From: an uncultured Mollicutes bacterium
Lineage (GTDB): Bacteria; Bacillota_I; Bacilli_A; RFN20; CAG-826
NCBI GenBank assembly: GCA_900540385.1
Contig: UQFY01000011.1
Span: 6,043-70,042 of the forward strand
Direction of reading: 5' to 3'
Length of the DNA stretch: 64,000 nucleotides
Part shown: piece after piece, positions 5,407 to 57,507 of the stretch
Numbering within the stretch: position 1 is the stretch's first letter
Layout of the letters: every line of letters begins with the position of its first letter
The notes under the pieces: model-generated
The model's database searches: none
What the model saw: the letters and a program-made list of their open reading frames with translations, nothing else
What the model was told of the DNA's origin: nothing
Position numbers and translations under genes: made by a program

Positions 5407-6049
5407 AGAACTGAAACTCTGTGTGCCTCTCCAAACCTGGATTTTTATATTTTTATCCATCACCATCATGATTCCTTCCTGGCCTAGCTTGATTTCTTTC
5501 TTTTATCCTTTAGCGGGAATTACCGTGGTTTTTACCCTCTCTAACGCCAATCGTGATTTGTTATACACCTCGATTTTACCTTTAAGGAAAAAGGATGTGG
5601 TCAAAGGGAAAGTCCTCCTTATTTCTTCCTTAGAAATTATTAGCATGCTTGTTTCCCTTCCTTTTGGTTTCTTAAAGCTCTTTCTTCAAAAGGGCTTACC
5701 AGAAGAGCAAATCTATCCTGAACTCGGATTTAATCTTGCTTTATATGGCTTCGTCTTCCTTGTCTTTGGTGTCTTTAATTTGATTTGTTTCCCATGGTAC
5801 TACAAGAAGCCTGAAGCCAAAGTCACCTTGCCATTTCTTATTTCTGATTTGGTTACCATTCTTTTAATTAGCTTTATTATGGCCGTTTTCATTCTTTTCC
5901 CAGAATTTGCTAACTACGTGAATTCATATGAGCTGCCGAATCTTTTAACCCAGATTGCCATTCTATTGGGTGGTTTACTTAGCTTCTTAGGCTTTACCTT
6001 CTTGGCTAATCATCTTGCTCAAAGGAACTTTCAAAAGGTAGATATTTAG
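5381..6049 (+). CDS. ABC-2-type membrane permease partner
   Basis: About 6 TM helices. Starts inside the 3' end of the ATPase gene. Typical three-gene AbrB/ATPase/ABC-2 unit. Confidence 0.6.
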   Translation: MKMKNLLYKELKLCVPLQTWIFIFLSITIMIPSWPSLISFFYPLAGITVVFTLSNANRDLLYTSILPLRKKDVVKGKVLLISSLEIISMLVSLPFGFLKLFLQKGLPEEQIYPELGFNLALYGFVFLVFGVFNLICFPWYYKKPEAKVTLPFLISDLVTILLISFIMAVFILFPEFANYVNSYELPNLLTQIAILLGGLLSFLGFTFLANHLAQRNFQKVDI

Positions 6050-24052: not shown

Positions 24053-24120
24053 AACTTCAGTCAAAATGAAGTGAAGTATGAAGTAACAATGAAGTAATAC
24101 TTCACTCTTACTTCATTCTT
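24053..24120. repeat. Direct repeat DR-B copy 1 (59-bp core 24062-24120) with four TGAAGT and two inverted ACTTCA hexamers
   Basis: The 59-bp core matches 25625-25683 at 58 of 59 positions. Weaker similarity extends 9 bp leftwards. Starts just after the stop codon of the preceding gene. Confidence 0.9.
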
Positions 24121-24150
24121 TCGTTATAATATTGATGGGAGGTAAAGAAA

Positions 24151-25617
24151 ATGCTTTTTGAAGAACTAGTCCCCAATACAAATCTCGAAGATTATGAAGT
24201 GGAATTTAAAGGAATTATCAATGAAGGCTTTGATAATGAAACAAAGCAAAGAGTAGAGAATGGGTGGCTAAAAGAAATTGCTGCTTTTGCAAATACTTTT
24301 GGCGGAGTCCTCTATGTTGGTGTAGAAAACAAAACCCATAAAATCGTTGCCTTATCCCACGAATGCGCAGATAAAATCACCTTAATGGTTCAAAGATTAA
24401 TCCCTTTACACATCGAGCCTCCTATTCGCTATACAATCGAAAAAATACCGGTTCCAGAAGTTTCGCCAACTCGCTATGTTCTAGGGATACATGTAGAAAA
24501 AAGCAAATTTCCACCGGTTTCTCTTCACATTAATGGGACGAGTGTTATTTATGTAAGACACTTTGGAAAAACAAGCCCTGCAACAGGTGAAGAAATACGT
24601 AACCTAGTGTTATCTAGCGATTCTGTCTCCTATGACATTATGGAAACAGATGAATTTTTCCATAAAGAAGATTTTCAAATGCTGTTCTCTTTCTACAAGG
24701 AGCAGAACAACGGGAAAGAATTGACGGAAAAAGATTTATTTAACATTGGTTTTTTCACGCTTGATAAAAAATTAAAAAGAGGAGCCATTCTTTTCCGTGA
24801 TAATTGCAATGATTCAAGAACGTTAATCGAATGTTCTGCCTTCCCTGGCATCAGCAAAGGGGACAATCTTTTCCTTGCAAGCAAAAAAATACAAGGAAAC
24901 TTAATTGAAGAATACAAAGAAGCCATGGACTTTATTGAATCTCGTTCTATCAACGGCTTTGAAAAAACACCTAACGGAAGAAAAGATATCTTTTCCTTTC
25001 CAAAACGTTCCCTCTCAGAAGGAATTGCCAATGCCATCGGACATCGCAACTATTTTATTCAAGGTGGACAAATTGAAATCAATGTTTTTAAAGACCGCTT
25101 GGAGATTATTTCGCCAGGTTCTTTGCCCACCCATAAATGGTTGCAAAAAGAAACCAATCTAGCTCAAATTCCTCCACTTCGGAGAAATGAACTTATTTGC
25201 GCAGTCTTTACTCTTTGCAAAATCATGGATCATAAAGGCAGTGGTTTTGACAAAATTGAGCAAGAATACAAAGAATATGGACCGAAATTCGCACCCTTTG
25301 CGGATTCTGACGATTCCTTTTTCTCTTTAACTCTTCCCGATCTTACTCATCCTTCGGGCCTCGTATCAAGCAACGAAAAACCAGCCGTTTATACGATAAA
25401 TGGGGAAGAAACAGCTAAACAATTAGAAATACTTTCTTATTGTTGGAATGCTCCACATACCGCTTTAGAAATCGCTGAAATGCTTGGCATAAAGCCTTCT
25501 AATTATTTCCGAAAAGAAATCATCCAACCTTTAATGGAGAAAAACCTACTTTTGATGAGCAATTCGACTTATCCGGCCAAATATTATTCCAATCACAACA
25601 CCGTCTTCCCAAAATAA
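24151..25617 (+). CDS. AlbA_2 (Schlafen-like) / HATPase_c_4 / winged-helix putative transcriptional regulator (RecG-like misnomer family)
   Basis: EDYEVEFKG...LKEIAAFANTFGGVLYVGVEN (AlbA_2). GIANAIGHRNYFIQGGQIEINVFKDRLEIISPGSLP (HATPase_c_4). C-terminal wHTH-like region. Confidence 0.8.
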   Translation: MLFEELVPNTNLEDYEVEFKGIINEGFDNETKQRVENGWLKEIAAFANTFGGVLYVGVENKTHKIVALSHECADKITLMVQRLIPLHIEPPIRYTIEKIPVPEVSPTRYVLGIHVEKSKFPPVSLHINGTSVIYVRHFGKTSPATGEEIRNLVLSSDSVSYDIMETDEFFHKEDFQMLFSFYKEQNNGKELTEKDLFNIGFFTLDKKLKRGAILFRDNCNDSRTLIECSAFPGISKGDNLFLASKKIQGNLIEEYKEAMDFIESRSINGFEKTPNGRKDIFSFPKRSLSEGIANAIGHRNYFIQGGQIEINVFKDRLEIISPGSLPTHKWLQKETNLAQIPPLRRNELICAVFTLCKIMDHKGSGFDKIEQEYKEYGPKFAPFADSDDSFFSLTLPDLTHPSGLVSSNEKPAVYTINGEETAKQLEILSYCWNAPHTALEIAEMLGIKPSNYFRKEIIQPLMEKNLLLMSNSTYPAKYYSNHNTVFPK

Positions 25618-25683
25618 CTTCGCACAAAATGAAGTGAAGTGTGAAGTAACAATGAAGTAATACTTCACTCTTACTTCATTCTT
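25616..25683. repeat. Direct repeat DR-B copy 2
   Basis: See copy 1. Begins within the stop codon of the AlbA_2 gene and lies upstream of the giant lipoprotein gene. Confidence 0.9.
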
Positions 25684-31163: not shown

Positions 31164-31396
31164 TAACGAGCTTTTTGTATCTAGATACCCATCAAATTGT
31201 ATTCTTTGGGACAGCTTTCTTAAAACATTTCAAAATAACACGAAAAAACATCTCTAAATAAGGAGATACGATAAGAGAAAAAGAAAATGAAAATAAAATG
31301 CGAAACGATACTCAATTTTCTCCCTTTTAATGGTGTTTTTTCCTAAATTTCCATTAAAGAACTCGGCTTTATAAAAATCCGATATAATATTTTCAT

Positions 31397-32410
31397 ATGG
31401 AAAAGAAACTACAAATCCGTAACAGCGCAGTGGACTTTCTCGTTTTCACGAAAGACGTTCATCAAAATGGAATTGAAGTCAGAGTTTATAATAACGACGT
31501 TTGGCTTTCTCAAAAGGCTATAGCCCAACTTTTTGATGTTGACAGAAGTGCGGTGGTTAAGCATCTTCGAAATATCTTTGAGAGTGGAGAGCTAAATGAA
31601 AATTCAACTTGTGCCAAAATGGAACAAGTTGCAAATAATGGCAAAAAATACCAATATAAATATTATTCTTTAGCCGCTATTATTGCCGTTGGATATCGTA
31701 TCAATTCTCAAAGAGCAACGGAGTTTCGCCAATGGGCGACCAATATTCTAGACACCTTTACAAAACAAGGCTACGTACTAGATAAAGACAGACTAATAAA
31801 TGGGCAAATCTTCGATGAAGATTATTTTGAACATCTTCTTTCAGAAATTCAAGAAATTCGTGCCAGTGAGCGCCGTTTCTATCAAAAGATAACGGATATT
31901 TATGCGACGGCTGTGGATTATTCTCCTGAAAGCCAAACTACAAAAGATTTCTTTGCGACGATTCAAAACAAAATGCACTATGCCGTTCATAAGAGTACTG
32001 CGGCCGAAATGATTATGGCTCGTGCTGATCACACAAAAGAACATATGGGCCTTACTTCTTGGAAAAACGCGCCCAAAGGCAAGATTGTTAAAGCGGATGT
32101 TTCCGTTGCTAAAAACTACTTAACGAAAAATGAACTTCAGGACTTGAATGAAATTGTCACGATGTATTTGGATTATGCGACAAGACAAGCAAAGAAACAT
32201 ATTCCAATGACAATGGAAGATTGGGCAAAGAAATTAGATACGTTCTTGCAATTTAACGAGGAAGACATTTTGCAAAATAAAGGCAAGGTTACTATGGCTA
32301 TCGCGAAATCCTTTGCGGAAAGTGAATTTGAACAATATCGTCTTATTCAAGACCGTCTATATGAAAGTGATTTCGACCGTCTTATCTCAAGTTTAGACAA
32401 AAAGAAATAA
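31397..32410 (+). CDS. RhuM-family virulence/island-associated protein
   Basis: IEVRVYNNDVWLSQKAIAQLFDVDRSAVVKHLRNIFESGEL ... AVGYRINSQRATEFRQWAT is the characteristic RhuM N-terminal region. Confidence 0.85.
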   Translation: MEKKLQIRNSAVDFLVFTKDVHQNGIEVRVYNNDVWLSQKAIAQLFDVDRSAVVKHLRNIFESGELNENSTCAKMEQVANNGKKYQYKYYSLAAIIAVGYRINSQRATEFRQWATNILDTFTKQGYVLDKDRLINGQIFDEDYFEHLLSEIQEIRASERRFYQKITDIYATAVDYSPESQTTKDFFATIQNKMHYAVHKSTAAEMIMARADHTKEHMGLTSWKNAPKGKIVKADVSVAKNYLTKNELQDLNEIVTMYLDYATRQAKKHIPMTMEDWAKKLDTFLQFNEEDILQNKGKVTMAIAKSFAESEFEQYRLIQDRLYESDFDRLISSLDKKK

Positions 32411-32411
32411 G

Positions 32412-32813
32412 TTATATTTGCATCAAATCCCGGATTTTAAAGAAGATATCTTTATCGGCTGGACACCAAGATAAAAACTCTCCTTCTTCTTTATTAATCC
32501 ATTTTTCATCCGAATGGATTCCTTTTTCAATTGTTAAGTTTCCTTCGATAGGTGTTACAAGGAAGGCGTCCATATCCAAAATAAAAGATGGATATTCATA
32601 CACTTCATTTAGTAAGAATCTCTCTACTTTTATAGTGGTTTCAAGTTCCTCTTTGATTTCACGGATGATCGCCTCTTTAGGCGTTTCACCCTCTTCGATC
32701 TTTCCACCAGGAAATTCATAGAGACCTTTGAATTCTCCATAATCTCTTTGAGCGACAAAGATACGGTTATTTTTCTTGATGAGGGCACACACGACCCGAA
32801 TTCTCTTCTTCAT
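32412..32813 (-). CDS. Nudix hydrolase (MutT/NudG-like (d)NTP pyrophosphohydrolase)
   Basis: Nudix box GGKIEEGETPKEAIIREIKEELE. Its start overlaps the 3' end of the helicase reading frame by 47 nt. Confidence 0.85.
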   Translation of the reverse strand: MKKRIRVVCALIKKNNRIFVAQRDYGEFKGLYEFPGGKIEEGETPKEAIIREIKEELETTIKVERFLLNEVYEYPSFILDMDAFLVTPIEGNLTIEKGIHSDEKWINKEEGEFLSWCPADKDIFFKIRDLMQI

Positions 32814-35604
32814 CTTTTTCTATCCCGAAATCATCATAATACATAAGGGGGACCTTTTCTTCTAATTCGATGTCAAATAACAAGGTTTCTTTAGGATTAT
32901 CCGACACTCTTGGATTCTTTAGATACCCTCTTCCTAAATAATAGAAAGGCATTTCCGCTCCATCCTCTCTTTTGGCTTTTCTCACAAAGATATAGGAATA
33001 GGGGTCCTTTAATAAAGAAATGCCCTTTGAATTATTCATTCTTGTCCCTGTCTGAGATTCCCATTGTAAGAGAGATGGAGATAAGAAACGGTCCTTATAT
33101 TTCAAATGAGACAAGACTTGTTCATCTTTCTTTAAATCGATATAAATCACGCGCTCTTTATCTACCTTGAAAACACCCATCATCCGGAAAAGATTCTCAC
33201 TATTTAAAGCTAAAAGAGAGGAAAAAGACGTATATGGGTGGTAACGTTTTAATCTTCCCTCCACGTTATAGAACTCAATTTGGTAACGAGTTAAGCCATA
33301 CTCTAACAAAGAAATAAGCCAGTCTTTAAAAGAGTCTTTGCTCACTTCAAAATTCAAAGAGTAATAATCCCCTTCTTTTTTCACTAATGTGTGGTGATAA
33401 GAAGGTTTGGTGTAATAAAACTCATCTTGTAACACTTTTAAGGCATAAGAAAACGTATCTTCCTTAAAATGGTCCACATCCTTTAAAGAAGAATAAAGTT
33501 CCTCTTCCGTTTTCTTTCCATTTAATAATTCTTTGATAATGAGATATTCCTCAGGATGAACAAGGGGGAGATATTCATAGATTGTTTCGATCCATTCTCT
33601 TTCTTCTTTGGAGAAAAAAGGAACGTCTTCGCCCATTCTTTCTAAGAAGTCATAATAAGAAGGAAATTTCTTCGTGAAATGCAAAATATCCACGCCTGTT
33701 TCTTGATCTAAGAACACTTCATGTTTTGGATATTCATTCGGCCCCAATTTCAAATAACTCTTCAAATTCTGATAATCCGCTTTCAAGAAGGCAAGCGAAT
33801 TGAAATTCGTTTTCTCAATGGATTGCAAGATTTCTTCCTGGGCCTTTTCTTCGAAATGAATTTCTAGATTGGGTATTGCTAAAGAAGAGAAATTATCCCT
33901 TACCATATTCGCAAGAGCCAATTTGTCAGAAACTCCACTTTTGGAAAGACTTCCTAACGCTAAGGCAATCTGGACAGACCTCAAATAAGAATTGGCGATA
34001 AAATCCAAAACAATAAGATATTGCTTATTCTCGTATTTTCTTAATCCTCTCCCCAATTGTTGAATAAAAATGGTGGAAGATTCCGTAGGACGTAAGAAAA
34101 GAACCATATTGATGGATGGAACGTCGATTCCTTCATTTAAAATATCAACGGCAAAAACAAGTTCCAAAGGATCGTTCTTATCCTCTAATCTTTGAAAGAT
34201 ACGGATTCTTTCACCCAAAGAGGAAGAACCAGTTAAATAGGCAGTGGAATAACCAAGATTCATCATCTGCATGGCCATTTCCTTAGCGTGTTCGACATTT
34301 CGTCAGAAACCGATGCAACGTAACTTTCCTTCCGGACGATGTTTCTCGATTTCATCCCCAACAAAAGAGCAATGAAGAGAAGAAGATATAGATTGAATAA
34401 GAAGACGGTTACCTTCCACGCTTCCATCGCTAGCATAGCTAATCAAATCATCCTTGATGCCATAATAATGAAAAGGAACGATGAGATGATTTTCTAACGC
34501 GTCACGTAATCTCAAATCAAAAGGCACGTTATTGCCAAACATCTGATAGACATCTTCCCCGTCCATGCGGTCAGGTGTTGCGGTTAAACCAAGTAAAAAC
34601 GAAGGCTTAAAATACTCGATGATTTTTTGATACGTTGAGGCAGCCGCGTGATGAACTTCATCGATAATGATGTAATCGAATTCTTCGGGGGAGAATAATT
34701 CCAAATGTTTCGATAACATTTGGTTTGAAGCAAAGATAAAATCCTTATCGATTTCCGAATATTCCCCATTAAAAAGACCGTAGCTTCTTTCTTGTCCGAA
34801 TACTTTGCTAAAAGTGTTCAAAGCCTGTGTAAGAATCGTATCTTTATGAACGATAAATAGTAAACGTTTTGCTCCAAAAAATTTCGCATCAAAAGCGGCT
34901 AAGTAAGTCTTTCCTGAGCCCGTGGCCGCAATGACCATTGCTTTATTGATATTTCTATTCCTTGTGTTTTGAAGTTCTTTTAAAGCCTGTCTTTGCATGA
35001 AATTTGGTTTCAACGTTCCGTTTTCTTTGTCATAGGAATAATCCATATCCCAAGAAACAATCGCATAAGATAAGGCAATCTCATATTCCTTCACATTTTC
35101 TCTTGTTAAAGGCTTTACCTTATTCCAAAGATAATTGAATTCCTCAAGGATTTTTCGAACGAATTGGTATTCCTTAGAGGAGCTTATCCCAACATCCCAT
35201 TCCTTGTTTTTAAGCAAAGCAAAACGCGTGATATTAGAGGAACCTACGATGCTTTCGAAGGAAGAGTCCTCATATTCAAAAAGATAGCCCTTCGTATGGA
35301 AACCATCGTCATCAAAAGAATGATTCTCTAAGCGACATTCAAAATTCGGATATCTTCTTTGAAGTTCTAAAAAGGTTTCTAAAGAGGCAATATCGGTGAA
35401 ATTCTGATAGGTTGAGGTTAGAATTTTCCCTTTTGCACCCCGAGATAAGGCTTTCTCTAAATGGGGTAAAAGAAGAATCAATCCCGCTTTCTTAATAAAA
35501 GATACGGACCAAGAAAAAGAAGCGCATCGATCCAAACATTGAATGATTCTATTTAAGAAATTGGGTTCGCTTTGATTGGTGTAAAAGGAGGCTTCAAGCA
35601 TCAT
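32767..35604 (-). pseudogene. PLD-nuclease / SF2 helicase (ResIII + Helicase_C) / DUF3427 protein interrupted by one in-frame TGA (34303-34305)
   Basis: N-terminal ORF: HKD motif HTKGYLF...GSSNIT, Walker A ATGSGKT, DEVHH. C-terminal ORF: helicase motifs V-VI VDILNEGIDVP and QQLGRGLR plus a long DUF3427-like tail. The two ORFs are in the same frame and read ...RCIGF*RNVEHAKEMAMQ... Confidence 0.75.
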
Positions 35605-44464: not shown

Positions 44465-46120
44465 ATGAAACGCGGCGGAAAAAGAGAGGGTTCTGGAAGA
44501 AAACCAATTGTTGGGAAAGACATAAAGATAAAATTGCCTTTTGAAACAATTGATACTATTGAACGCCTTTATGGAGGCGATTCATTATCCGATAAAATTC
44601 GTGAATCCATTTCTTCGGGAATTAGATCAAGCTTGAATAACTATGGTGTTGTTTACACCCCATCTTTTTTATCTGAATTCGTTGCATGGCTTTGCAAAAG
44701 GTACTTTGACTCAAGTAAAGAGTCGCTTGTTATCTTTGATCCTGCTTGTGGCGAATGCTCCTTGCTTGAGGCTGCTTCAAAACAATTTACAGAAGGGAAG
44801 CGACAAATCAAACTCATAGGTAACGATGTCGACAATCATTACGTTCAAATTGCGAACAATGAAGGCATTACTTTTTTTAATTATGATGCATTGTTTCCAG
44901 ATGCCAAACTAAGACCGGAAAAGTTTTGGAAAAAGAAAACTGGCAATATTGATTTAATAATTGAAAACCCGCCTTGGTCAGGTGATAAGATCTATAAAAA
45001 AACAGAGTTACAAAAAAATAACTATGTCCTTGGAGAAGGGCAATATGATGCCTTTTCATTATTTATTGAAATGTCGCTTCGAATAGCTGATGAAGGTACG
45101 ATTTGTGCTTTTATTGTCCCTGATTCCATTTTCACTTCAGAAGACGATTCAACTCGCAAATACATCCTTAATCATTCAAACATTCTTGCTATAGCAAGAC
45201 TTGGCGAAAAACTTTTTCCGTCCGTCCATAGATCGACAGCTGTCGTTGTTTGTCAAAAAGGCAGAAAGATTGAACACAATGTCGAATGCTTTAGGCTTCT
45301 AACCGAAGATAAAAAGAACGTTTTAAATTCAAAGGATAATCTAATTAATTTGTTTGAAAAAAAGTTGCACATTGTGCCAGAAAAGAGGTTTGTTGACAGT
45401 GGTTATGTTTTTGATATTGACACAACAGACAACGATGTTTCTGTTTTATCAAAAATTAAGAAAGGATCTAGTTCTCTATCGGAAAAATTCACATTTGGGA
45501 GAGGGGTTGAAATCTCAAAAAAGGGAAACCAAGTCAAGTGCCCACATTGTGGAATAATTCAGCCGTTCTTAGGTTCTTCTAAAACTAAAAAATGTCAACG
45601 ATGCGGCGAAGAATTTGATGTTCAAGACAACATTTTTGAAATGATGATTGATAATAAAAAAAGCGGTTTTTCACCAATTTTGGTTGGAGAGAATATTCAA
45701 CGTTATTACATTAAAGGGCACAAATATGTACTTCCAAAAATGGAAGGCATTAACTACAAAGAGGATGATCTCTACAAGGGAGCAAAGATTTTAGTTAGGA
45801 AAACTGGACTAGGTATAAAAGCATCTTATGATGGCGGCGATCATGAAACATTTGATTCTAAACAAGGGTATCGCTATGTGGAGGCTCACCATTTGATTCC
45901 AATGAAAGCACAAAAGGACTTTCCAAATATAAATCTCGATAGAACTGAAAATATCGTTGCTCTTTGCCCGACGTGTCATCGAGCGGTTCATCTTGGGACA
46001 AAGGAAGAAAAAATGAAACATCTTAAACCACTATATGACGAAAGAATGCCTTTGTTGCAACAGATTTATCCTGATTTTAGTTTGACGTTTGAAGATTTAA
46101 TTAGGGAATACTATCGATAG
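44465..46120 (+). CDS. RHH-like N-terminus + gamma-class N6-adenine DNA methyltransferase (Eco57I/TaqI-like) + Zn-ribbon + C-terminal HNH nuclease, single polypeptide
   Basis: GGKREGSGRKP...IKLPFETIDTIERL (RHH-like). VYTP; motif I FDPACGECS; motif IV ENPPWSG. CPHCG...CQRCG. HNH region VEAHHLIPM...NIVALCPTCHRAVH. Confidence 0.8.
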   Translation: MKRGGKREGSGRKPIVGKDIKIKLPFETIDTIERLYGGDSLSDKIRESISSGIRSSLNNYGVVYTPSFLSEFVAWLCKRYFDSSKESLVIFDPACGECSLLEAASKQFTEGKRQIKLIGNDVDNHYVQIANNEGITFFNYDALFPDAKLRPEKFWKKKTGNIDLIIENPPWSGDKIYKKTELQKNNYVLGEGQYDAFSLFIEMSLRIADEGTICAFIVPDSIFTSEDDSTRKYILNHSNILAIARLGEKLFPSVHRSTAVVVCQKGRKIEHNVECFRLLTEDKKNVLNSKDNLINLFEKKLHIVPEKRFVDSGYVFDIDTTDNDVSVLSKIKKGSSSLSEKFTFGRGVEISKKGNQVKCPHCGIIQPFLGSSKTKKCQRCGEEFDVQDNIFEMMIDNKKSGFSPILVGENIQRYYIKGHKYVLPKMEGINYKEDDLYKGAKILVRKTGLGIKASYDGGDHETFDSKQGYRYVEAHHLIPMKAQKDFPNINLDRTENIVALCPTCHRAVHLGTKEEKMKHLKPLYDERMPLLQQIYPDFSLTFEDLIREYYR

Positions 46121-46667: not shown

Positions 46668-48341
46668 CGAGGCGGGACCCCGGACAAAAAGTTGGACCAT
46701 CCGAATGGTTACATAAATGTATACTAATGATCAAAAAATACATGCAATTGAGATTGTTAAGAAGTGCAAAGGTATTATTAATAATTGTTAGGGTATCCTG
46801 ATAGCAGAGATACTTTAAAGCTGTGGTATAAAAATTTCCAAGAAGATAATAATAAAATCACAAAAACTCCGCGTTATAGCGATAAGGAAATTGATAAGGC
46901 AGTTTCCTATTATTTGGAGTGCAAAAACATTCAAAAAACTATTGATGATTTAGGCTACCCAGACTCAAGAATGACGTTATGGAGATGGATTAAATCACAG
47001 GACATCAATATTTCTAATAAACGTGGTAGAGTTTCGTCGCTTGACGAAGAGGCAAAATCATCAATCATCTTAGAATATCTAAATTCCGATGAAACTATGC
47101 TAAAATTCTCATTAGAAAAAGGCATTGCTACCTCTACATTAAAAGGATGGCTTGATGCCTATAATCCAAAAAAGGAGGAAGTCTCTATGCCGAAAGAAGA
47201 AAGCAATAATGTCGATGAAACAGTTATTCCTCCTCGCAGTGATCAAGAAGAAATAGACGAACTTAAAAAGGAAATTGCTAAATTAAAAGCGGAAAAGATA
47301 GAAGCAAATCGTAAGACCAAAGAAGCTGAAGCAGAGCTCAAATTAGCAAAAGCCAAATTAGCGGAAACTCAACTAGAATATGACATCTTAGAAAAGGCGG
47401 CAGAACCATTAAAAAAAGTTAATGGCATTAATATCAAAACTCTTAAAAACAAGGAGAAGGCCATCGTTATTAATGCCTTAAGAAGTAAGTATAAGTTAGC
47501 AGAGCTGCTTAAATCTCTAGAGATGGCCAAATCATCATATGAATATCAAGTAAAAGCTCTTAACCATGATAAATATCAAGAGTTAAGACCTATAATCAAA
47601 CAAATATTCGATGATAGTTATCAAGCATATGGTTCAGAAAGAATATATGGTGAATTAAAAAATCAAGGAATCACAGTTTCTGAAAAAGTTATTAGAAGAT
47701 TAATGAAAGAAGAAAATATCCATCCATTTGTTCCTAGAATGAAGAAATATTCTTCTTATCAAGGAGAAATATCTCCAGAAGTTACTGATTTATATAAGCA
47801 CGACTTTAAAGCGGATGGACCATATAAGAAGCTAGTAACAGATATTACTGAATTCTCACTTAGAGATGGTAAAGTATATCTATCTCCAATGATTGATTTA
47901 TACGATGGATGTCAATTAATTGGAAGATAGGATATTCTCCAAATAAAGAATTAACTAACTCCATGTTAATAGAACTACATAACATCATTCCTAGCGATGC
48001 TAAACCCATCATCCATAGTGACAGAGGTTGCCATTATCGAATCCCTGATTGGATTAATCTCATGGAAGAATATGGTTATACAAGATCAATGTCCAGAAAG
48101 GGATGTTCCCCGGATAATGCAGCGTGTGAAGGATTCTTCGGAATAATGAAAAGAGAATTCTTCCATAATCATGATTGGGGTAATGCGACAAGGGAAGAAT
48201 TCATAAAAGAATTAGACAAGTACTTAACTTGGTTTAAAATAAAGAGAATAAAGGAAAGGTTAGGATATTTAAGTCCAACAGAATATCGTTCTAGAGCAAG
48301 TCTCTAAAATGGTACGAAAAAATGTCCGGACTCCCGGCTTG
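46668..48341 (+). mobile_element. IS3-family insertion sequence (degenerate copy)
   Basis: Imperfect terminal inverted repeats share the core GGGA..CCGGACA (left about 46668-46686, right about 48323-48341, roughly 15 of 19 matches). Encodes HTH/leucine-zipper OrfA-like and rve (DDE) OrfB-like sequence. Confidence 0.65.
46717..48307 (+). pseudogene. IS3-family transposase, reading frame broken at about 46786 and about 47908
   Basis: MYTNDQKIHAIEIVKK... (ATG 46717) stops at TAG and continues in another frame as LGYPDSRDTL. Coiled coil EIDELKKEIAKLKAEK. rve motifs HSDRGCHY and SMSRKGCSPDNAACEGFFG lie in a third segment after IDLYDG. An A7 run sits at 47411-47417. Confidence 0.7.
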
Positions 48342-51956: not shown

Positions 51957-52083
51957 TCTTCTGCCATAAAGAGAAGACGAGGGACAGGCCCTACGACTCT
52001 TCAGCAACCTGCATTCGTAAGGTGCTAAATCCTGAACGATGGGAAATAAACAATTATCTCTCATCGTGAAGATGGGAGTTTTT
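51957..52083 (+). promoter_or_regulatory. SAM-I (S-box) riboswitch with intrinsic terminator
   Basis: Conserved cores AGAGAAGACGAGGGACAGGCCC, CAGCAACC and GGTGCTAAATCC. P1 is CCAT/ATGG. Terminator CTCTCATC-GTGAA-GATGGGAG plus T5 (52058-52083). The 3' P1 strand GATGGGAA can alternatively pair with CTCTCATC as an antiterminator. Confidence 0.85.
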
Positions 52084-52111: not shown

Positions 52112-52771
52112 ATGAAAATCTTATTACATCTTCCTCACGTCTCATTAGACGTACCAAATTATTTTTATAAGGGGCTAATCATCCCTAAGCCTCTTTTCCG
52201 GAAATACAATCTAGAAATGAGTGATTTAGGGGTGGAATATCTTTTGAAAGATCTTCCAGGAGTAAAGATAATACCTCCTTATTCGCGCTTATTTTGTGAT
52301 GTAGAACGTTTTCGTGACGATAAGAAAGAAAGGATGGCTCAATATGGGGAGGGTCTTTTATATACAAAGATGTATGATGGCATTCTATTTCATAAGCACG
52401 ATGAAATCTATCGAAAGAAAGTCCTTACTTATTACGATACGTACCATCAAAAACTAGATGAAATTACCAAAGGCCTCCTTTCTTTTGACGATGAACTCTT
52501 AATACTAGATTGCCATTCTTTCTCTGATAAGATGGCCTCGTATTTCTTTAAACCTCCTTTTCCAGATATCTGTATCGGAATAGAAAAAGACTTCTTTGAT
52601 CAAGAAATATTGCATCGCATCATTGAAGCAATCAAAAAGAGGGGATACACCTATCAAATAAACTATCCCTATCAAGGAAGTCTTGTCCCAAACTGTATCT
52701 ATAATAAGAAAGTTATTTATAAAAAAGTCGTATCCATCATGTTAGAAATCAACAAACGTATCTATCTTTAA
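52112..52771 (+). CDS. N-formylglutamate amidohydrolase (FGase) family protein
   Basis: MKILLHLPHVSLDVP, SRLFCDVERFRDD and LDCHSF are typical of Firmicute FGase-family proteins. GGAGAAAG RBS. Confidence 0.7.
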   Translation: MKILLHLPHVSLDVPNYFYKGLIIPKPLFRKYNLEMSDLGVEYLLKDLPGVKIIPPYSRLFCDVERFRDDKKERMAQYGEGLLYTKMYDGILFHKHDEIYRKKVLTYYDTYHQKLDEITKGLLSFDDELLILDCHSFSDKMASYFFKPPFPDICIGIEKDFFDQEILHRIIEAIKKRGYTYQINYPYQGSLVPNCIYNKKVIYKKVVSIMLEINKRIYL

Positions 52772-52780
52772 TTCCTAATG

Positions 52781-52821
52781 AACTGTTACAAATTCAAAAT
52801 TATTTTAAGTTTGTAACAGGT
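52781..52821. repeat. Direct repeat DR-E copy 1 (41 bp, contains a 10-bp inverted repeat)
   Basis: AACTGTTACAAATTCAAAATTATTTTAAGTTTGTAACAGGT is identical to 54128-54168. Internal arms are CTGTTACAAA/TTTGTAACAG with a 17-nt spacer. Confidence 0.95.
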
Positions 52822-52905
52822 CGTGATAAAATGAAATTGTCTCTTAAGAAGGAAAAAATCTTGTTCTCATATTTCCAAAAGCGTTAAAAAAAGAAAGGAT
52901 GCCTT

Positions 52906-54129
52906 ATGTATATTCTAAGAAAACAATATCTAGAAGAAATTAGAAAATATTATGATTCCAACTTGATTAAGGTTTTAACAGGCATTAGACGTGTGGGCAA
53001 GAGCGTTCTTTTAGAACAAATACGTGAAGAATTGAAAAAAGATCGCAATTTGGATGAGGAACATATTATTTGCGTCAATTTCGAAGATATTTCTTTTTCT
53101 TCCATTAAAAATGCCTATCAACTAAATGACTATATTTCTGCTTGCATTAAAGATGAGAGGAAATACTATATTTTTCTCGATGAAATCCAACATGTAAAAG
53201 AATTTGAAAAAGTTCTTGCCTCCTTGAAGGCAACGAAAAACGTTTCTATTTTTGTTACTGGCAGCAATTCAAAGCTTCTTTCTGGAAGACTGGCTTCCCT
53301 TTTAGTCGGACGTTGCAAGGAATTCAAAATTCAGCCATTCACATACAAAGAATTCTTGGACTTTTATCAAGAAAATCAGCTTCCTCTCCCTACAAAGCCT
53401 CTCAATAATTACATCCGCTATGGGGGAATGCCACAAAGATTGGATTATTTTTTAGAAAAAGACATCGTTGCTTATTTGTCTGATCTTTTTAATGGCATCG
53501 TGGAGAAAGATATTTGTTCAAGTAAATCGAGAATCGACAAAGAAACATTCTTGAACATTGCCAAATATATCATCTCCAACTCTGCAAAGGATTTTTCTCC
53601 TGATAACATCGTTGATTATTACAACATGAACAATTCCGATAAAATACAACGCGTCACGCTTTATCGCTATTTAGAAAAGATGGAGCACGCTTGCCTTATT
53701 CAGCGAGTGAAACGTTATGATATCGCTTCAAAAAGAACTCTAAAATCGATAGAAAAGCGATTCGCCATGGACACAGGGCTTATTTTAGCGTGTAGTAATT
53801 CAAATCGAATTTTTCCTTCTAGAGCACTAGAAAACCTTGTTTATAACGAACTTATTTATAGAGGATATGAAGTAAAAATAGGAAAGACATATAAAGGTGA
53901 AATTGATTTCGTCACGATGAAAGAAAACAAAAAATGTTTCATTCAAGTCGCTTATCTTCTTTCTGATGAAGAAACCATCATCAGGGAATTCTCTCCTTAT
54001 AATTCTGTACGTGATCCCTCTCCGAAATACGTCATGAGTTTGGATGAGTTTGATATGTCACAAAACGGAATAACACATATCAATATCGAAGATTGGCTGC
54101 TTGGAAAAGTAGACTTGTTCCTTTCTTAA
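52906..54129 (+). CDS. AAA_14 ATPase with DUF4143 domain
   Basis: Walker A GIRRVGKSV, Walker B IFLDEIQHV. VTGSNSKLLSG, then C-terminal EIDFV...FIQV, a restriction-endonuclease-like core. Confidence 0.85.
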   Translation: MYILRKQYLEEIRKYYDSNLIKVLTGIRRVGKSVLLEQIREELKKDRNLDEEHIICVNFEDISFSSIKNAYQLNDYISACIKDERKYYIFLDEIQHVKEFEKVLASLKATKNVSIFVTGSNSKLLSGRLASLLVGRCKEFKIQPFTYKEFLDFYQENQLPLPTKPLNNYIRYGGMPQRLDYFLEKDIVAYLSDLFNGIVEKDICSSKSRIDKETFLNIAKYIISNSAKDFSPDNIVDYYNMNNSDKIQRVTLYRYLEKMEHACLIQRVKRYDIASKRTLKSIEKRFAMDTGLILACSNSNRIFPSRALENLVYNELIYRGYEVKIGKTYKGEIDFVTMKENKKCFIQVAYLLSDEETIIREFSPYNSVRDPSPKYVMSLDEFDMSQNGITHINIEDWLLGKVDLFLS

Positions 54130-54168
54130 CTGTTACAAATTCAAAATTATTTTAAGTTTGTAACAGGT
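54128..54168. repeat. Direct repeat DR-E copy 2
   Basis: Perfect 41-bp copy. Overlaps the TAA stop of the AAA_14 gene. Confidence 0.95.
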
Positions 54169-54199
54169 GACCATCATTTTGAAGAATTATAATAAGCAT

Positions 54200-54925
54200 A
54201 TGAATCAATTAAAAAAGATTAAAAGCTGGATACATAAAGATACCCGTATTGTCTTCTTGGGAGGAGCAGGGGTTTCTACTGCAAGCGGAATTCCAGACTT
54301 CCGTTCTCCGACAGGGTTATATAAAATCCAAAACAAATATGGTCTTCCTGCAGAAAGAATGCTCTCCCATTCTTATTTCTTTGAACATACGGACACTTTC
54401 TATGATTTCTATTGGAACTTCATGGTCTTTCCTAATGCAAAACCAAATAAAGCCCATATCGCTTTAGCAAACTACGAAAAAAGAGGGGGCCATATCGAAA
54501 TATTGACCCAAAATATTGATGGCCTTCATCAAGAAGCGGGTTCTAGACGCGTCTATGAACTCCATGGTTCCACCAAGCGTTATTTCTGCTTAGATTGTGG
54601 GAAAGAATACACTCTTGATCAAATTCCCCAAAAGAAAGAGATCCCGCATTGTTTGTGTGGAGGAATTCTGAAACCGGACGTGGTTCTTTATGAAGAGCCC
54701 TTAAACGAAACCATTCTTTATCAATCCGTGAACGCTTTACGTTATTCTGATTTATTAATCGTTGGAGGAACCTCTTTAAATGTCTATCCTGCCGCCGGAC
54801 TTATCTATGAATTCGGTGGAAAACATAAGGTTCTTATCAACAAAGAAAGAACCCCTCTAGATTCCTTCTTCGATGAAGTCATACATGAAGATATTGGAGA
54901 TGTTTTAGAATATCTTCTTTCTTGA
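54200..54925 (+). CDS. cobB: NAD-dependent protein deacylase, Sir2 family
   Basis: GAGVSTASGIPDFRS, QNIDGLH, Zn-binding CLDCG...CLCGG, GTSLNVYPAA. The start is uncertain (ATG 54200, or GTG 54167 inside DR-E). Confidence 0.85.
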   Translation: MNQLKKIKSWIHKDTRIVFLGGAGVSTASGIPDFRSPTGLYKIQNKYGLPAERMLSHSYFFEHTDTFYDFYWNFMVFPNAKPNKAHIALANYEKRGGHIEILTQNIDGLHQEAGSRRVYELHGSTKRYFCLDCGKEYTLDQIPQKKEIPHCLCGGILKPDVVLYEEPLNETILYQSVNALRYSDLLIVGGTSLNVYPAAGLIYEFGGKHKVLINKERTPLDSFFDEVIHEDIGDVLEYLLS

Positions 54926-54999: not shown

Positions 55000-57507
55000 T
55001 TAAGCTGCCTTATGGCAAACAAAGGTGAACTTAGGCGTAGATTGATATGTGTTTGTACCGAAATAGATATCGCAATAAGTTCCTTTATAACATTCCTTAT
55101 TGGAGGAATCTAATCCCTTGGTATAACCACATTTTAAGAGATAGGCCGCATATTTGTTGGCGTAGATTTGACGATCAGAGCTTGTTCCGCAACTCTTATC
55201 CAAACTAATCTCTAAAGTCACGCCATCAATTGGACCATAACTAAATGGATAAGAAGAATCGGTGTAATCAAGAGCAAGATATGGTACGGAATCGGCTGCA
55301 GTTTTTGCATCCGCATCAGACATTCCGAGTTTTTCTTTGAAAACCTTTAACAATTGATAGTTATAGAAACTTGCATAACCCGTTTCCCATGTTAACCAAG
55401 AAGAATTCGCTTTTAATGGAGAGAAATCGATGAAATCCTTATCGGAGAAATAGAATTTATCATTCTCCACGCTGATAGATTGATAGTTAAAGGAGAGTTT
55501 ACGGTATCCGCCATTATTCGGAGACCAATATTCATAGGTAGAAACCTTACCATCTTCCCCTAAGGTGATGTAGGTATCGTAATCTTTTGCATCATCGTCA
55601 TCTTTAGGGAACATCGTTAAGCCAACGCCATCGACAAAAGGTTTCACCGCATATTTGTTCTCAGAGACTTTGGTGAATAATTCAGGATGAGTGCTAAAAG
55701 ACATGAAATCAGAGAGAGTTTTGCCCTTTTGAACATCACCAGAACGAACCGCTCTACCTTCAAAATGATCCGAAGGATCTTCCGTTTCGGCATTTTTATA
55801 AATTAGTTTATAGCTGATGCTAAATGGCTGGACGCCATCTTCCGTCTTTAAATATCCGTAGCTTTCTTTTCCAGAGAATTCTGGGACATAGAAAGAATAA
55901 TCCCCGGTATGGTAATAATCACCGATATCACGATTGGTGATGGTGTTATTATTGGAATTATTGATTTCATGCGCTTGCCAAACGTTATTATCGTTTTGGA
56001 AATAAGAGAAAGCAGTGCTTAATTTTTGATAATCCTCTTCTTCGGAGTTAACGGCATACTTTTCTAAAGAAATAGCGGTAGGTGTTTCGAGATTGGTTAC
56101 GAATTCGTAATGATGCCCATCGGTATAGGTATAGCCTAATCCGTGGAAAGATAAGGCGTTATTCTCATATGTAAGATCTAAGGAACGAATATTTCCGAAG
56201 GTAACATAGTTATAGTCGCAAAGGGATTCAATTATGCCATCGGCTCCTGGACCAAAATAATGGTAGGAACCATCATCTGTTTTTCTACAGGCTAAAGGAT
56301 CGAAATACTCCTTTAAGAAACGATAGGATAAATCTTCCCAAAGGTAAGAAGTACGTTTGCTAGCAATTTCATTATTCCCGTTAATATAGACTTCTTCGGC
56401 ATAACCTGAAGCACTCTTACGGAGATATTGGCAATCATCGATAGCCCCACGGACATTATCATAACGGTTATGAATCTTTTTCTCGTTTTCGTTTGCTTCC
56501 AAAGAAACACTTGCTTTCCAAGAGGAAACGCCTTCGCTAGAAATCTTATTCATTTCCGTTTTGGCTTTAATCTTATTATCAAGCGCCAACTTCGAAGCCT
56601 CTTCAGGCAAAGACTCCGTTGGTAAAGAGAAAGAAGAGATAAAATCTTCTAATTCTTGGTTCACTGTTTCGCCAACTTTCGTGAGGAATCCTTTTGCAAG
56701 AGGGACAATTCTCGTATTCTCATCATCGTTTGCATCTTCCCAAGTATAAAGTTGGATAATAACGGACTTATCTTCTCTCACGCCAAAACGAACTTCGGCA
56801 ATTCTTCCGGTTATGGAAGCATTTTTATACCCAAGCAAGGTCCCGCAAGCAACGATGAAGGCTTGCTTATCGGAATAAATGCCATGTTCCGCGTCATAAG
56901 AAACGAACTCTTCGGTTACACGGTTTTCTGGATTTGCTAAAGAACCAAGAAGGTTCATGCGGTATAAGAAATCGTCTTCATTTGCAGGCGTTCTATAAGA
57001 AGCCCCATCAAGACGGTGGGCATTTGTAATCTTAATCGAGGAGCCTTCCTTATCGTATTCGTAATAAATGTCATTAGGGAATTCCGTTTGGTTATAGCTC
57101 TTTAAAAGAAGGTAACCCGTATTGGCATAATTTCTTGTGATGTATTTACGAGTGACTGTATCTTTTAAAGTAGAAGTCACATTTCCTTCCGTATCATACA
57201 TCTCGTATTCAACGGTATAGTTTCCGGAATTGGCAGCAGCCATAAGCGTGCTATAGATGTAAGCTTTATCACCAGAATTTGTATCGATTGGAGGAACGTA
57301 TTGAGAAGATTCGGAGCTTCCTTTTTGAGAATTGCTGCTAGAACTTTCGCTAGAAGAATCTTTTCTAGAATCGTTACTAGAAGAAGGGGCAATGGAAGAA
57401 ACGTTTTCTTCCGAAGGAATTGTATCATTACTGCTTTCATTCGTGCTTACGCAAGAAAGTAACATTCCTACGCTTAAGCACAACGGCATAAAATATCTTT
57501 TTTTCAT
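55000..57507 (-). CDS. Large hypothetical surface lipoprotein
   Basis: Lipobox GMLLSCVST followed by a long Ser-rich linker. 835 aa with no recognisable catalytic motif. Confidence 0.7.
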   Translation of the reverse strand: MKKRYFMPLCLSVGMLLSCVSTNESSNDTIPSEENVSSIAPSSSNDSRKDSSSESSSSNSQKGSSESSQYVPPIDTNSGDKAYIYSTLMAAANSGNYTVEYEMYDTEGNVTSTLKDTVTRKYITRNYANTGYLLLKSYNQTEFPNDIYYEYDKEGSSIKITNAHRLDGASYRTPANEDDFLYRMNLLGSLANPENRVTEEFVSYDAEHGIYSDKQAFIVACGTLLGYKNASITGRIAEVRFGVREDKSVIIQLYTWEDANDDENTRIVPLAKGFLTKVGETVNQELEDFISSFSLPTESLPEEASKLALDNKIKAKTEMNKISSEGVSSWKASVSLEANENEKKIHNRYDNVRGAIDDCQYLRKSASGYAEEVYINGNNEIASKRTSYLWEDLSYRFLKEYFDPLACRKTDDGSYHYFGPGADGIIESLCDYNYVTFGNIRSLDLTYENNALSFHGLGYTYTDGHHYEFVTNLETPTAISLEKYAVNSEEEDYQKLSTAFSYFQNDNNVWQAHEINNSNNNTITNRDIGDYYHTGDYSFYVPEFSGKESYGYLKTEDGVQPFSISYKLIYKNAETEDPSDHFEGRAVRSGDVQKGKTLSDFMSFSTHPELFTKVSENKYAVKPFVDGVGLTMFPKDDDDAKDYDTYITLGEDGKVSTYEYWSPNNGGYRKLSFNYQSISVENDKFYFSDKDFIDFSPLKANSSWLTWETGYASFYNYQLLKVFKEKLGMSDADAKTAADSVPYLALDYTDSSYPFSYGPIDGVTLEISLDKSCGTSSDRQIYANKYAAYLLKCGYTKGLDSSNKECYKGTYCDIYFGTNTYQSTPKFTFVCHKAA

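What the first reader, a model, noticed from the sequence alone, without database searches (positions are those of the whole stretch)
52781..54168. AAA_14/DUF4143 ATPase gene flanked by perfect 41-bp direct repeats containing a 10-17-10 inverted repeat
AACTGTTACAAATTCAAAATTATTTTAAGTTTGTAACAGGT occurs twice, 1347 bp apart. One copy follows the FGase-family gene and the other overlaps the ATPase stop codon. The internal CTGTTACAAA/TTTGTAACAG arms around an AT-rich spacer resemble a recombinase core site more than a terminator, as there is no U tract. Perfect identity implies a recent event. This is too long for a classical target-site duplication and no recombinase is encoded inside. The same gene-plus-repeat architecture recurs at 24053-25683 with another orphan ATPase-type gene, which hints at an undescribed cassette-like insertion mechanism for these widespread orphan genes.
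Basis: seen in the sequence. Interest (0 to 1): 0.7.

Follow-up and report, generated by a model that had tools for sequence, protein, structure and literature searches.

The report
Palindrome-bracketed single-gene defence-like cassettes
Two orphan, defence-type genes in this window are each bracketed by two copies of their own palindromic promoter element. Close relatives that lack one of these genes keep exactly one copy, so the genes behave as precise gain/loss cassettes of a kind I could not find described.

Summary
The 41-mer occurs exactly twice, 1347 bp apart, and the second copy starts inside the ATPase stop codon. It is not a local curiosity. In at least 25 unrelated gene neighbourhoods, 65-98 % identical homologues of this AAA_14/DUF4143 gene (PADLOC candidate PDC-S01) carry a homologous ~45-55 bp palindrome about 80 nt upstream of the ATG. 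In about 21 of these neighbourhoods a second copy starts at the stop codon. The arms covary (13 of 17 pairs). The copies of one locus resemble each other most.

Closely related genomes have FGase followed directly by Sir2, with exactly one palindrome between them, so the gene plus one repeat is a clean presence/absence unit.

The Schlafen-type gene at 24 kb shows the same architecture with an unrelated repeat, also in two other contexts.

"Recent event" is not supported. The arrangement is shared by lineages with synonymous divergence up to about 0.25.

No recombinase lies in the 64 kb, and the repeat is neither a dispersed intergenic repeat nor a known RNA family.

Most likely these are compact autonomous gene modules whose promoter palindrome is duplicated at the 3' end, and recombination between the copies deletes or re-inserts the gene. 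The enzyme and the direction of the event are unresolved.

The parts
52774..52828 (+). Upstream palindrome U of the ATPase module. The exact 41-mer is 52781-52821.
   Evidence: Exact repeat. Covariance-model hit of 57.6 bits. Invariant in 8 occupied lineages. In homologues the same element lies about 80 nt before the ATG and overlaps the -35 position.
52822..52905 (+). Promoter / 5' leader of the ATPase gene. A putative extended -10 (TGATAAAAT) is at 52824-52832 and an AGGA ribosome-binding site precedes the ATG.
   Evidence: Read from the sequence and by homology to the conserved 'TGnTAnAAT - GAGGTG - ATG' layout in 25 loci. No canonical -35/-10 pair was found by the scan in this locus, so this part is inferred.
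52906..54129 (+). AAA_14 / DUF4143 ATPase gene (407 aa), matching PADLOC candidate defence family PDC-S01.
   Evidence: Pfam AAA_14 3.8e-33 and DUF4143 1.7e-14. PADLOC PDC-S01 7.7e-127. The model shows an AAA+ core, a helical region and a C-terminal alpha/beta domain. DUF4143 is listed as a PD-(D/E)XK family (PMC3424549).
54121..54175 (+). Downstream palindrome D of the ATPase module. The exact 41-mer is 54128-54168 and starts in the TAA stop codon.
   Evidence: Exact repeat. Covariance-model hit of 59.9 bits. It has 1-2 substitutions in L139, L140 and L156. Empty alleles keep one copy joined to this right flank.
52781..54127 (+). The 1347-bp presence/absence unit (one repeat plus leader plus gene). 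It is absent from the empty alleles L196, L197 and L198.
   Evidence: FGase-Sir2 spacers of 96-98 nt hold a single palindrome. Occupied L156 and empty L198 share the same right-flank haplotype.
24053..24120 (+). Upstream repeat of the second module: TGAAGTAA iterons plus their inverse, forming a hairpin. It overlaps a promoter-like site, TTCACT-18-TATAAT, at 24101-24130.
24151..25617 (+). SLFN_AlbA_2 / HATPase_c_4 gene (488 aa), the cargo of the second module.
   Evidence: Pfam. Homologues at 77 % and 64 % identity in unrelated contexts carry 53/53 and 68/68 identical flanking repeats of the same element.
25616..25683 (+). Downstream repeat of the second module, 94 % identical to the upstream one. 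It starts in the TAA stop codon.

Best explanation
The two 41-mers are the upstream (U) and downstream (D) copies of a ~45-55 bp palindrome. The palindrome is an integral part of a compact, self-contained gene module: palindrome, about 18 nt, extended -10, RBS, 407-aa ORF, TAA/palindrome.

U sits over the -35 region of the gene's own promoter and is the constrained copy. I infer that it is a promoter-linked operator and/or an insulating hairpin against read-through. D is the same sequence in direct orientation, abutting the stop codon.

Because the module is bracketed by direct repeats, recombination between the copies removes exactly one repeat plus the gene and leaves a solo palindrome. The reverse reaction, between a one-palindrome circle and a solo palindrome, can put the gene back. 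This gives a clean presence/absence polymorphism within a population.

The recombination is most likely homology-driven (RecA, or slippage at hairpins) rather than catalysed by one dedicated recombinase. Two unrelated gene families with unrelated repeats, and many lineage-specific repeat variants, all behave the same way.

Shown: the architecture, its covariation, its co-travel with the gene, and the empty site holding one copy.
Inferred: promoter/operator function, the recombination mechanism, and the direction of the event (gain or loss).
For: (1) Architecture. It is conserved in at least 25 unrelated neighbourhoods. U lies at about -80 from the ATG and D at 0-3 nt from the stop, with a spacing of about 1300 bp.

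(2) Selection on symmetry. 87.8 % of cells are paired, 13 of 17 pairs show compensatory changes, and 0 of 500 shuffles reach this.

(3) The element occurs only with this gene. A covariance model finds 2 copies in the 64-kb window. In 240 kb of other loci it finds only U or D positions, the solo copies in the empty sites, and a second upstream copy in L183 and L184.

(4) U and D of one locus co-evolve. The locus's own D is the best match to its own U in 10 of 22 loci. Near-identical pairs are direct, not inverted. A 46 %-identical homologue has a different palindrome at both positions.

(5) Empty alleles. L198, L196 and L197 have FGase, one palindrome, then Sir2. L198 is 95-98 % identical to the window 1-2 kb upstream, so it belongs to the same population. 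It shares its right-flank haplotype with occupied L156.

(6) The cassette coalesces later than its flanks. For example, L140-L156 has ATPase dS 0.24 against Sir2 0.80, and W-L097 has ATPase 0.18 against FGase 0.32. W-L140 has FGase 0.11 and ATPase 0.12 against Sir2 0.44. The empty allele lies inside the flank diversity of occupied ones.

(7) U is more constrained than D. U has 0 of 41 variable sites, D has 4-5 of 41, and neighbouring non-coding DNA has 12 of 94. D is degenerate or undetectable in 7 of about 28 contexts.

(8) The same rule holds for the SLFN-type gene, with an unrelated repeat, in 3 contexts. Many Logan contigs for both families are exactly unit-length, as expected if repeats of at least 31 bp bound them.

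(9) No recombinase or transposase lies in the window apart from a broken IS3 gene 5 kb away.
Against: - Only one polymorphic site was found, and gain cannot be told from loss. The one informative loop position (T in U; A in D of L139/L156 and in the solo copies) fits both directions.
- Homology-driven recombination cannot explain how the module colonised 25 new sites with a complete palindrome at both ends.
- D is still far more conserved than synonymous sites, and its register with the stop codon is fixed, so D may itself be functional.
- L183 and L184 carry two upstream copies and no D. Other orphan genes in L143 have tandem palindromes upstream. Both observations fit a 'two binding sites are needed' model.
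- No circle junction or promoter mapping is available.
- In this locus no canonical promoter was predicted after U.
Confidence: 0.5

Rival explanations
1. Two-operator autoregulation. Both palindromes are functional binding sites for the module's own oligomeric ATPase, through a winged-helix region. One site lies over the promoter and one at the gene's end, giving looping or a roadblock. The repeats are kept alike by selection and gene conversion. The empty alleles are incidental deletions between direct repeats, and no mobility function exists.
For: - U overlaps the -35 region in nearly all loci.
- Palindrome variants track protein lineages, including a completely different palindrome in a 46 % homologue.
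- L183 and L184 have two upstream copies instead of U plus D.
- Neighbouring orphan genes (an AAA_14 paralogue and Fic) carry two tandem palindromes upstream.
- The second family is called a 'predicted HTH transcriptional regulator' by one source, and its repeat consists of iterons.
- D is well below neutral divergence.
Against: - D is degenerate or lost in about a quarter of contexts, while U never is.
- U/D identity ranges from 100 % down to about 60 %, like decay after duplication.
- The exact abutment of D to the stop codon is not needed for looping.
- Arm centres are about 26 bp apart, not an integral number of helical turns.
- There is a modest excess of top-strand G-T over A-C mismatches, 16 to 6, which hints at a single-strand hairpin.
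- No DNA-binding data exist.
Confidence: 0.22
2. True site-specific cassette. The palindrome is an att-like site cut by an enzyme. The enzyme is either the cassette's own nuclease-ATPase (PD-(D/E)XK domain; Schlafen nuclease domain in the second family) or a trans-acting serine, tyrosine or Xer recombinase. Either would give excision as a circle and integration elsewhere.
For: - The unit is precise, and the empty site holds one copy.
- Homology between loci starts exactly at the left edge of U.
- The size and dyad symmetry (about 45-55 bp) resemble large-serine-recombinase att sites. Such recombinase genes adjoin the cassette in L162/L189, L195 and L171, and small ones adjoin distant homologues on plasmids.
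- PDC genes were defined by being 'embedded' inside other defence operons (bioRxiv 10.1101/2024.01.29.577857).
- A complete palindrome at both ends in 25 contexts needs a mechanism that duplicates the element.
Against: - No recombinase lies in the 64-kb window.
- Repeat sequences differ between lineages and families, which excludes one shared site-specific enzyme.
- No near-identical cassettes were seen in different contexts, and none in viral contigs.
- No solo landing sites were found elsewhere.
- Plasmid homologues next to small recombinases lack the repeats.
- The catalytic competence of the DUF4143 domain is untested.
Confidence: 0.15
3. Plain transcriptional punctuation. Both copies are intrinsic, partly bidirectional terminators that insulate a potentially toxic gene, and gene conversion keeps them similar.
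For: - Both fold stably, with z of about -5.
- 14 of 26 upstream copies are followed by a T-rich tract and 12 of 26 are preceded by an A-rich tract.
- Top-strand G-T wobble is in excess.
Against: - The copy where the gene's own terminator should be (D) has a T tract in only 2 of 13 cases.
- Neither copy in the window passes the terminator scan.
- Terminators need structure, not matching sequence, so co-evolution of U and D sequence and lineage-specific arm changes are unexplained.
- No Rfam family matches.
Confidence: 0.08

Closest known systems
Integron gene cassettes with attC sites
   Same: A compact ORF is bounded by structured, imperfectly conserved palindromes. The downstream site abuts or overlaps the stop codon. 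Excision between two sites leaves one site. Site sequence varies while symmetry is kept. The cassettes encode no recombinase.
   Different: - No IntI or attI is present in the window.
- The arms do not carry the RYYYAAC / GTTRRRY core sites.
- The palindrome is near-perfect, without extrahelical bases.
- Each module has its own promoter.
- Both flanking copies are the gene's own element, rather than the neighbour's attC.
- The host is a low-GC Bacillota-like genome.
dif / pdif modules (Xer-dependent small gene modules of Acinetobacter plasmids)
   Same: Single-gene or few-gene modules are bracketed by short recombination sites and have no recombinase inside. They occur in many contexts.
   Different: pdif sites are 28 bp (11-6-11) with a conserved XerD arm and usually alternate in orientation. 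Here the element is 45-55 bp, in direct orientation, and specific to the gene lineage. An Acinetobacter plasmid homologue of the ATPase had no XerD-arm match within 5 kb.
LTR / solo-LTR logic (direct repeats identical at birth, decaying, recombining to a solo copy)
   Same: U/D identity ranges from 100 % down to about 60 %. A solo copy lies at the empty site. The repeat contains the promoter.
   Different: There is no reverse transcriptase or integrase. The element is a 45-bp palindrome, not a long repeat. How the duplication arises is unknown.
IS200/IS605-type elements, PATEs and REP/RAYT hairpins
   Same: Hairpins lie at both ends in direct orientation, with no target-site duplication and no terminal inverted repeats.
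   Different: No Y1 (HUH) transposase is in the window. The hairpin is not dispersed (2 copies in 64 kb, always with the gene). U functions in a promoter context. No conserved cleavage tetranucleotides were identified.
Promoter operator plus auxiliary downstream operator (lac O1/O2, gal OE/OI)
   Same: There are two copies of one palindromic site, one at the promoter and one downstream.
   Different: The second site lies 1.3 kb away, exactly at the stop codon. It decays in many lineages. Binding has not been shown.

Membership tests
Integron gene cassette | attC with inverse core RYYYAAC at the 5' end and core GTTRRRY at the 3' end | tested here: not met
   The arms are CTGTTACAAA / TTTGTAACAG. 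GTTACAA and TTGTAAC each break the consensus, and GTT precedes AAC, which is the reverse order.
Integron gene cassette | Imperfect hairpin with extrahelical bases and an unpaired central spacer | tested here: not met
   The palindrome is near-perfect. There are 17 modelled pairs, 87.8 % paired, and no conserved bulge.
Integron gene cassette | IntI tyrosine recombinase and attI nearby | tested here: not met
   Pfam scan of all 49 ORFs of at least 120 aa in the window found no integrase. The rest of the genome was not available.
dif / pdif module | 28-bp XerC-6-XerD sites flanking the module | tested here: not met
   The element has 10-14-bp arms around a 13-17-nt centre. No TTATGTTAANT match with up to 1 mismatch was found around an Acinetobacter plasmid homologue.
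IS200/IS605 or PATE | Y1 HUH transposase (in cis or in the genome), and many dispersed copies of the hairpin | tested here: not met
   No such gene is in the window. The hairpin is found only at U and D positions and at the two empty sites. The genome-wide state is not testable here.
Intrinsic terminator | Stable stem followed immediately by a U tract | tested here: inconclusive
   In the window neither copy has a T tract. In homologues 14 of 26 U copies have a T-rich tail, but only 2 of 13 D copies do.
PADLOC PDC-S01 (candidate defence gene) | Match to the PDC-S01 profile; ATPase fused to a PD-(D/E)XK-family domain | tested here: met
   PDLC04787 at E = 7.7e-127 over 400 of 412 positions. Pfam AAA_14 plus DUF4143. 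A defence function has not been validated experimentally (PMC12988326).
Large-serine-recombinase att site | Cognate large serine recombinase adjacent; a 40-50 bp imperfect palindrome around a central dinucleotide | tested here: inconclusive
   The size and symmetry fit. A recombinase gene is adjacent in 3-4 of about 25 contexts, but none is in the window.
Known RNA family (Rfam) | Match at gathering score | tested here: not met
   Only tRNAs and a SAM riboswitch were found in the window. Nothing meaningful was found at either repeat, even at E up to 1.

The most novel reading that the evidence does not exclude
These are self-mobilising or self-excising single-gene elements of a new kind. The encoded nuclease-ATPase (AAA+ plus PD-(D/E)XK here; a Schlafen-type nuclease domain plus an HATPase-like domain, with a C-terminal wHTH inferred from relatives, in the second family) recognises its own lineage-specific palindrome. 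It cuts the palindrome, for example as an extruded cruciform, which would give hairpin-capped ends that unfold into a full palindrome at each end. The gene can then leave as a circle and insert at new sites. This would explain how the very abundant 'embedded' single-gene defence candidates such as PDC-S01 get into operons.
Probability: 0.12. Interest if true: 0.92.

Novelty: new variant of a known kind. Interest (0 to 1): 0.7.

Why it matters
PDC-S01 is reported as one of the most common candidate defence genes in prokaryotes: fourth most common overall, and the most frequent single locus in rumen genomes (PMC12988326, PMC13356809). It has no known mechanism. It was defined by being found 'embedded' inside other defence operons, and how it gets there is unexplained (bioRxiv 10.1101/2024.01.29.577857).

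This work adds three things:
- One subfamily, and an unrelated Schlafen-type family, are built as promoter-to-stop modules bracketed by two copies of their own co-evolving palindrome.
- Such a module is a clean presence/absence unit within a population.
- The palindrome is a defined cis element that can be tested for binding, cleavage, looping or excision.

This makes two questions directly testable: what these orphan ATPases recognise, and how single defence-type genes are gained and lost. The full-text searches I ran (DUF4143, COG1373, PDC-S01, guilt-by-embedding) turned up no description of this architecture.

Tried and rejected
- **Arm-pattern scan of genome contigs.** Only L042 and L097 were true relatives, and both were next to the ATPase.
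- **Same-species contigs for an empty site.** Logan contigs (k = 31) simply break inside the 41-mer, so they say nothing about occupancy.
- **Phage carriage.** No relative was found in viral contigs.
- **Integron attC, pdif, IS200/IS605, Rfam families.** The defining features are not met (see the membership table).
- **Plasmid homologues (34-50 % identity).** They have no U/D repeats, so the architecture is confined to the clade at 65 % identity or more, plus one 46 % homologue.
- **PDB sequence search.** No hit. The fold search gave only generic AAA+ matches (RFC, Orc1/Cdc6, MuB, Avs4) from a mediocre model with pLDDT 65.5.
- **Composition.** The cassette GC content (0.33-0.37) does not differ from the flanks.
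- **Empty alleles of the second module.** The look-up of the GH28-like upstream protein found nothing on record.
- **Gain versus loss from the loop polymorphism.** It is compatible with both directions.
- **Recombination break exactly at U.** For L097 the break lies inside FGase, not at U. For L156 the drop in identity begins roughly 100-150 nt before D, so it cannot be pinned to the repeat.
Full report
**Observation**

The 41-mer is present exactly twice, at 52781-52821 and 54128-54168, both on the + strand. No further match with up to 3 mismatches exists, and none is expected by chance.

Copy 1 lies 9 nt after the stop of an FGase-family gene (52112-52771), which is itself preceded by a SAM riboswitch at 51961-52078. 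Copy 2 begins inside the TAA of a 407-aa AAA_14/DUF4143 gene (52906-54129). A Sir2-family gene starts 31 nt after copy 2 (54200-54925).

The 10-17-10 inverted repeat is real, but the 'spacer' pairs with itself. The element is therefore one long AT-rich palindrome (-13.2 kcal/mol, z = -5).

A 68-nt repeat, 94 % identical, lies at 24053-24120 and 25616-25683. It brackets a SLFN_AlbA_2/HATPase_c_4 gene whose TAA again overlaps the start of the repeat. Among 49 ORFs of the window, only these two genes have such an upstream/downstream repeat.

**The repeat belongs to the gene family, not to the site**

The ATPase has thousands of homologues, including a large set at about 65-71 % identity, nearly all 407 aa long. 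I obtained their DNA context from look-ups and one metagenome scan.

By blastn of the flanks and blastp of the flanking ORFs, they lie in at least 25 unrelated neighbourhoods. Nearly all have the same layout:
- a homologous palindrome about 80 nt before the ATG, with arms like (A)TGTGT[TC]A[CT]AAA / TTT[GA]T[GA]ACACAT and a centre like TTCAAAATTATTTTGAA;
- then about 18 nt;
- an extended -10 (TGnTAnAAT);
- GAGGTG, then ATG.

In about 21 of these contexts a second copy starts 0-3 nt from the TAA.

An ungapped alignment of 39 copies shows 87.8 % pairing. 13 of 17 pairs have compensatory changes, for example TGTCACAAA/TTTGTGACA, CGTTACAAA/TTTGTAACG, TGTTACTAA/TTAGTAACA and TGATACAAA/TTTGTATCA. 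No shuffle out of 500, and no slid register, reaches this.

A covariance model built from the alignment finds only the two copies in the window. In 240 kb of other loci it finds only these positions:
- U or D positions;
- the solo copies described below;
- a second upstream copy in L183 and L184, which lack D.

So this is not a dispersed intergenic repeat. It is also not a known RNA family.

Homology between loci begins exactly at the left edge of U.

**U and D co-evolve**

Within a locus, U and D are more alike than across loci. The locus's own D is the best match to its own U in 10 of 22 loci. Where they are nearly identical they are clearly direct rather than inverted: matching positions out of 45, direct versus inverted orientation, are W 42 vs 35, L175 43 vs 38 and L191 44 vs 31.

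Identity ranges from 100 % (W) through 44/45 (L175) and 54/57 (L191) down to about 60 %. In 7 contexts D is degenerate or undetectable, whereas U is always present and well formed.

A homologue at only 46 % identity (L193) carries a different palindrome, TGCTCATGAATTTT/AAAATTCATGAGCA. It too lies both upstream and at the stop.

**Presence/absence**

Lineages close to the window all carry FGase-U-ATPase-D-Sir2, with 0-2 differences between U and D. These are L097, L139-L142, L155 and L156, with ATPase 94-99.8 % nt identity and dS up to about 0.25. The event is therefore not recent.

Contigs found through FGase proteins that are 89 % and 82 % identical (L198; L196 and L197) have FGase followed directly by Sir2. 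The spacer is 96-98 nt and contains exactly one palindrome. In L198 it differs from the 41-mer at one position.

L198 is 95-98 % identical to the window 1-2 kb upstream, so it belongs to the same species-level population. It shares its right-flank haplotype with the occupied L156. The alleles therefore differ by precisely one repeat plus the gene.

Synonymous divergence shows that the cassette coalesces later than its flanks:

| Pair | FGase dS | ATPase dS | Sir2 dS |
|---|---|---|---|
| L140-L156 | not computed | 0.24 | 0.80 |
| W-L097 | 0.32 | 0.18 | not available |
| W-L140 | 0.11 | 0.12 | 0.44 |

The empty allele lies inside the flank diversity of the occupied alleles: FGase dS 0.31-0.40 and Sir2 dS 0.42-0.46.

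Whether L198 and L196 never had the gene or lost it cannot be decided. The one informative loop position (T in all U copies; A in the D of L139 and L156 and in both solo copies) fits a crossover in the left half of the palindrome in either direction.

**Constraint**

In the eight occupied lineages, U has 0 of 41 variable sites. D has 4-5 of 41, and the adjacent non-coding DNA has 12 of 94. U is the constrained copy. D evolves like ordinary leader DNA, although all of these are well below dS.

Mismatches in the stems favour top-strand G-T (16) over A-C (6). This is a modest hint of a single-strand hairpin.

About half of the U copies have an A tract before and a T tract after, which looks like a bidirectional terminator. 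D copies rarely do. Neither copy in the window passes a terminator scan.

**The second family**

Homologues of the Schlafen-type gene at 77 % and 64 % identity lie in unrelated contexts (L199 after a MerR gene, L201 after dapB). They are flanked by 53/53 and 68/68 identical direct repeats of a homologous element, made of TGAAGTAA iterons and their inverse. The upstream copy overlaps a promoter-like site. The downstream copy starts 4-8 nt after the stop.

In both families, many Logan contigs have exactly the length expected for a segment bounded by repeats of at least 31 bp: about 1.32-1.37 kb and about 1.57 kb.

**What the proteins are**

The ATPase matches PADLOC's candidate PDC-S01 (E = 7.7e-127). 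DUF4143 is listed among the PD-(D/E)XK families (PMC3424549).

The structure model is mediocre (pLDDT 65.5). It shows an AAA+ core resembling RFC, Orc1 and MuB, then a helical region, then a C-terminal alpha/beta domain.

PDC-S01 is very abundant and has not been validated experimentally. It was found through genes 'embedded' in BREX, DISARM and type I RM loci.

Neighbours of the cassette elsewhere include:
- type I HsdS, Abi_alpha, Fic and SLFN-type genes;
- large serine recombinases, in 3-4 contexts.

The window itself has no recombinase or transposase except a broken IS3-type gene at 46.8-48.3 kb.

**Interpretation**

The best-supported reading (about 0.5) is a compact autonomous gene module. 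Its promoter-linked palindrome is present a second time at the 3' end. Recombination between the direct copies removes exactly the gene plus one copy, and in reverse can restore it.

I favour homology-driven recombination because unrelated repeats in two families, and many lineage-specific variants, behave alike. This argues against one shared site-specific enzyme.

Weak points:
- Only one polymorphic site was found.
- The direction of the event is unresolved.
- There is no explanation of how a complete palindrome comes to stand at both ends in 25 new sites.
- There are signs that two copies may be functionally required (L183, L184 and the tandem palindromes of neighbouring orphan genes).

Rivals:
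- Two-operator autoregulation (0.22).
- A true site-specific or self-catalysed cassette (0.15).
- Plain terminators (0.08).

**Comparison with known systems**

The unit works like an integron cassette, a dif module or an LTR/solo-LTR pair. It fails the defining tests of each: no attC core sites or IntI, no Xer sites, no Y1 transposase and no dispersed copies.

I therefore file it as a new variant of the 'site-bracketed gene cassette' kind, and not as a member of any of those families.

Noticed in passing
window 51961-52078: A SAM riboswitch (62.8 bits) lies directly upstream of the FGase-family (N-formylglutamate amidohydrolase-like) gene at 52112-52771. This is an unusual gene to be under SAM control.
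   Followed up: no
window 46785-48307: A broken IS3-type transposase (HTH_21, then rve_2 in a second frame). It is present in some samples of the species (L015) and replaced in another (L014) by a gene whose Pfam hit is GTP_EFTU_D3, so it is polymorphic.
   Followed up: partly
window 29352-35604: A defence-like island. It holds a second AAA_14 gene (603 aa, no DUF4143, no flanking repeats), RhuM, a NUDIX gene, and a helicase split into DUF3427/Helicase_C and PLDc_2/ResIII ORFs.
   Followed up: partly
window 44465-46120: A fused N6_Mtase/Eco57I-type methylase with a TaqI_C-like specificity domain and a C-terminal HNH nuclease (type IIG-like), just after tRNA-Trp.
   Followed up: no
window 54169-54199 versus L156 4262-4309 and L198 3590-3634: In the window lineage the spacer between D and Sir2 is 15 nt shorter than in L156, L198 and L196. 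The deletion removes the TTGATA -35 box of the Sir2 promoter, so Sir2 may depend here on read-through from the ATPase gene.
   Followed up: partly
L097 (GTDB record CAVGNR010000001.1): A 180-kb contig labelled 'Escherichia coli isolate ... cleanbin' carries this low-GC FGase-ATPase locus at about 93-95 % identity. The bin label is evidently wrong.
   Followed up: no
L189 4270-4620, L195 4270-4780, L173, L161, L165: Five loci with different upstream contexts share a conserved ~120-400 nt segment beyond D. The segment contains short hairpins and has no Rfam match. It leads to a small ORF and, in L189, L162 and L195, to a large serine recombinase. The cassette may sit at the end of a larger integrative element there.
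   Followed up: partly
L143 2475-2555 and 5310-5394: In an array of orphan genes (SLFN-type, three AAA_14 paralogues, Fic), the 393-aa AAA_14 paralogue and the Fic gene each have two tandem copies of their own palindrome just upstream (TGAAAACTTT.../...AAAGTTTTCA and TATCGTTC.../...GAACGATA).
   Followed up: no
L171 2671-2749 / 5341-5419; L185 193-291 / 2143-2241: Longer direct repeats (79 nt at 84 % identity; 99 nt at 78 %) bracket larger segments that include the ATPase cassette.
   Followed up: no
window beyond 54925 versus L140, L141, L156: Downstream of Sir2 the 835-aa gene with no Pfam hit (55000-57507, minus strand) is replaced by unrelated genes in L140, L141 and L156. This is a second gene-content polymorphism next to the cassette.
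   Followed up: no
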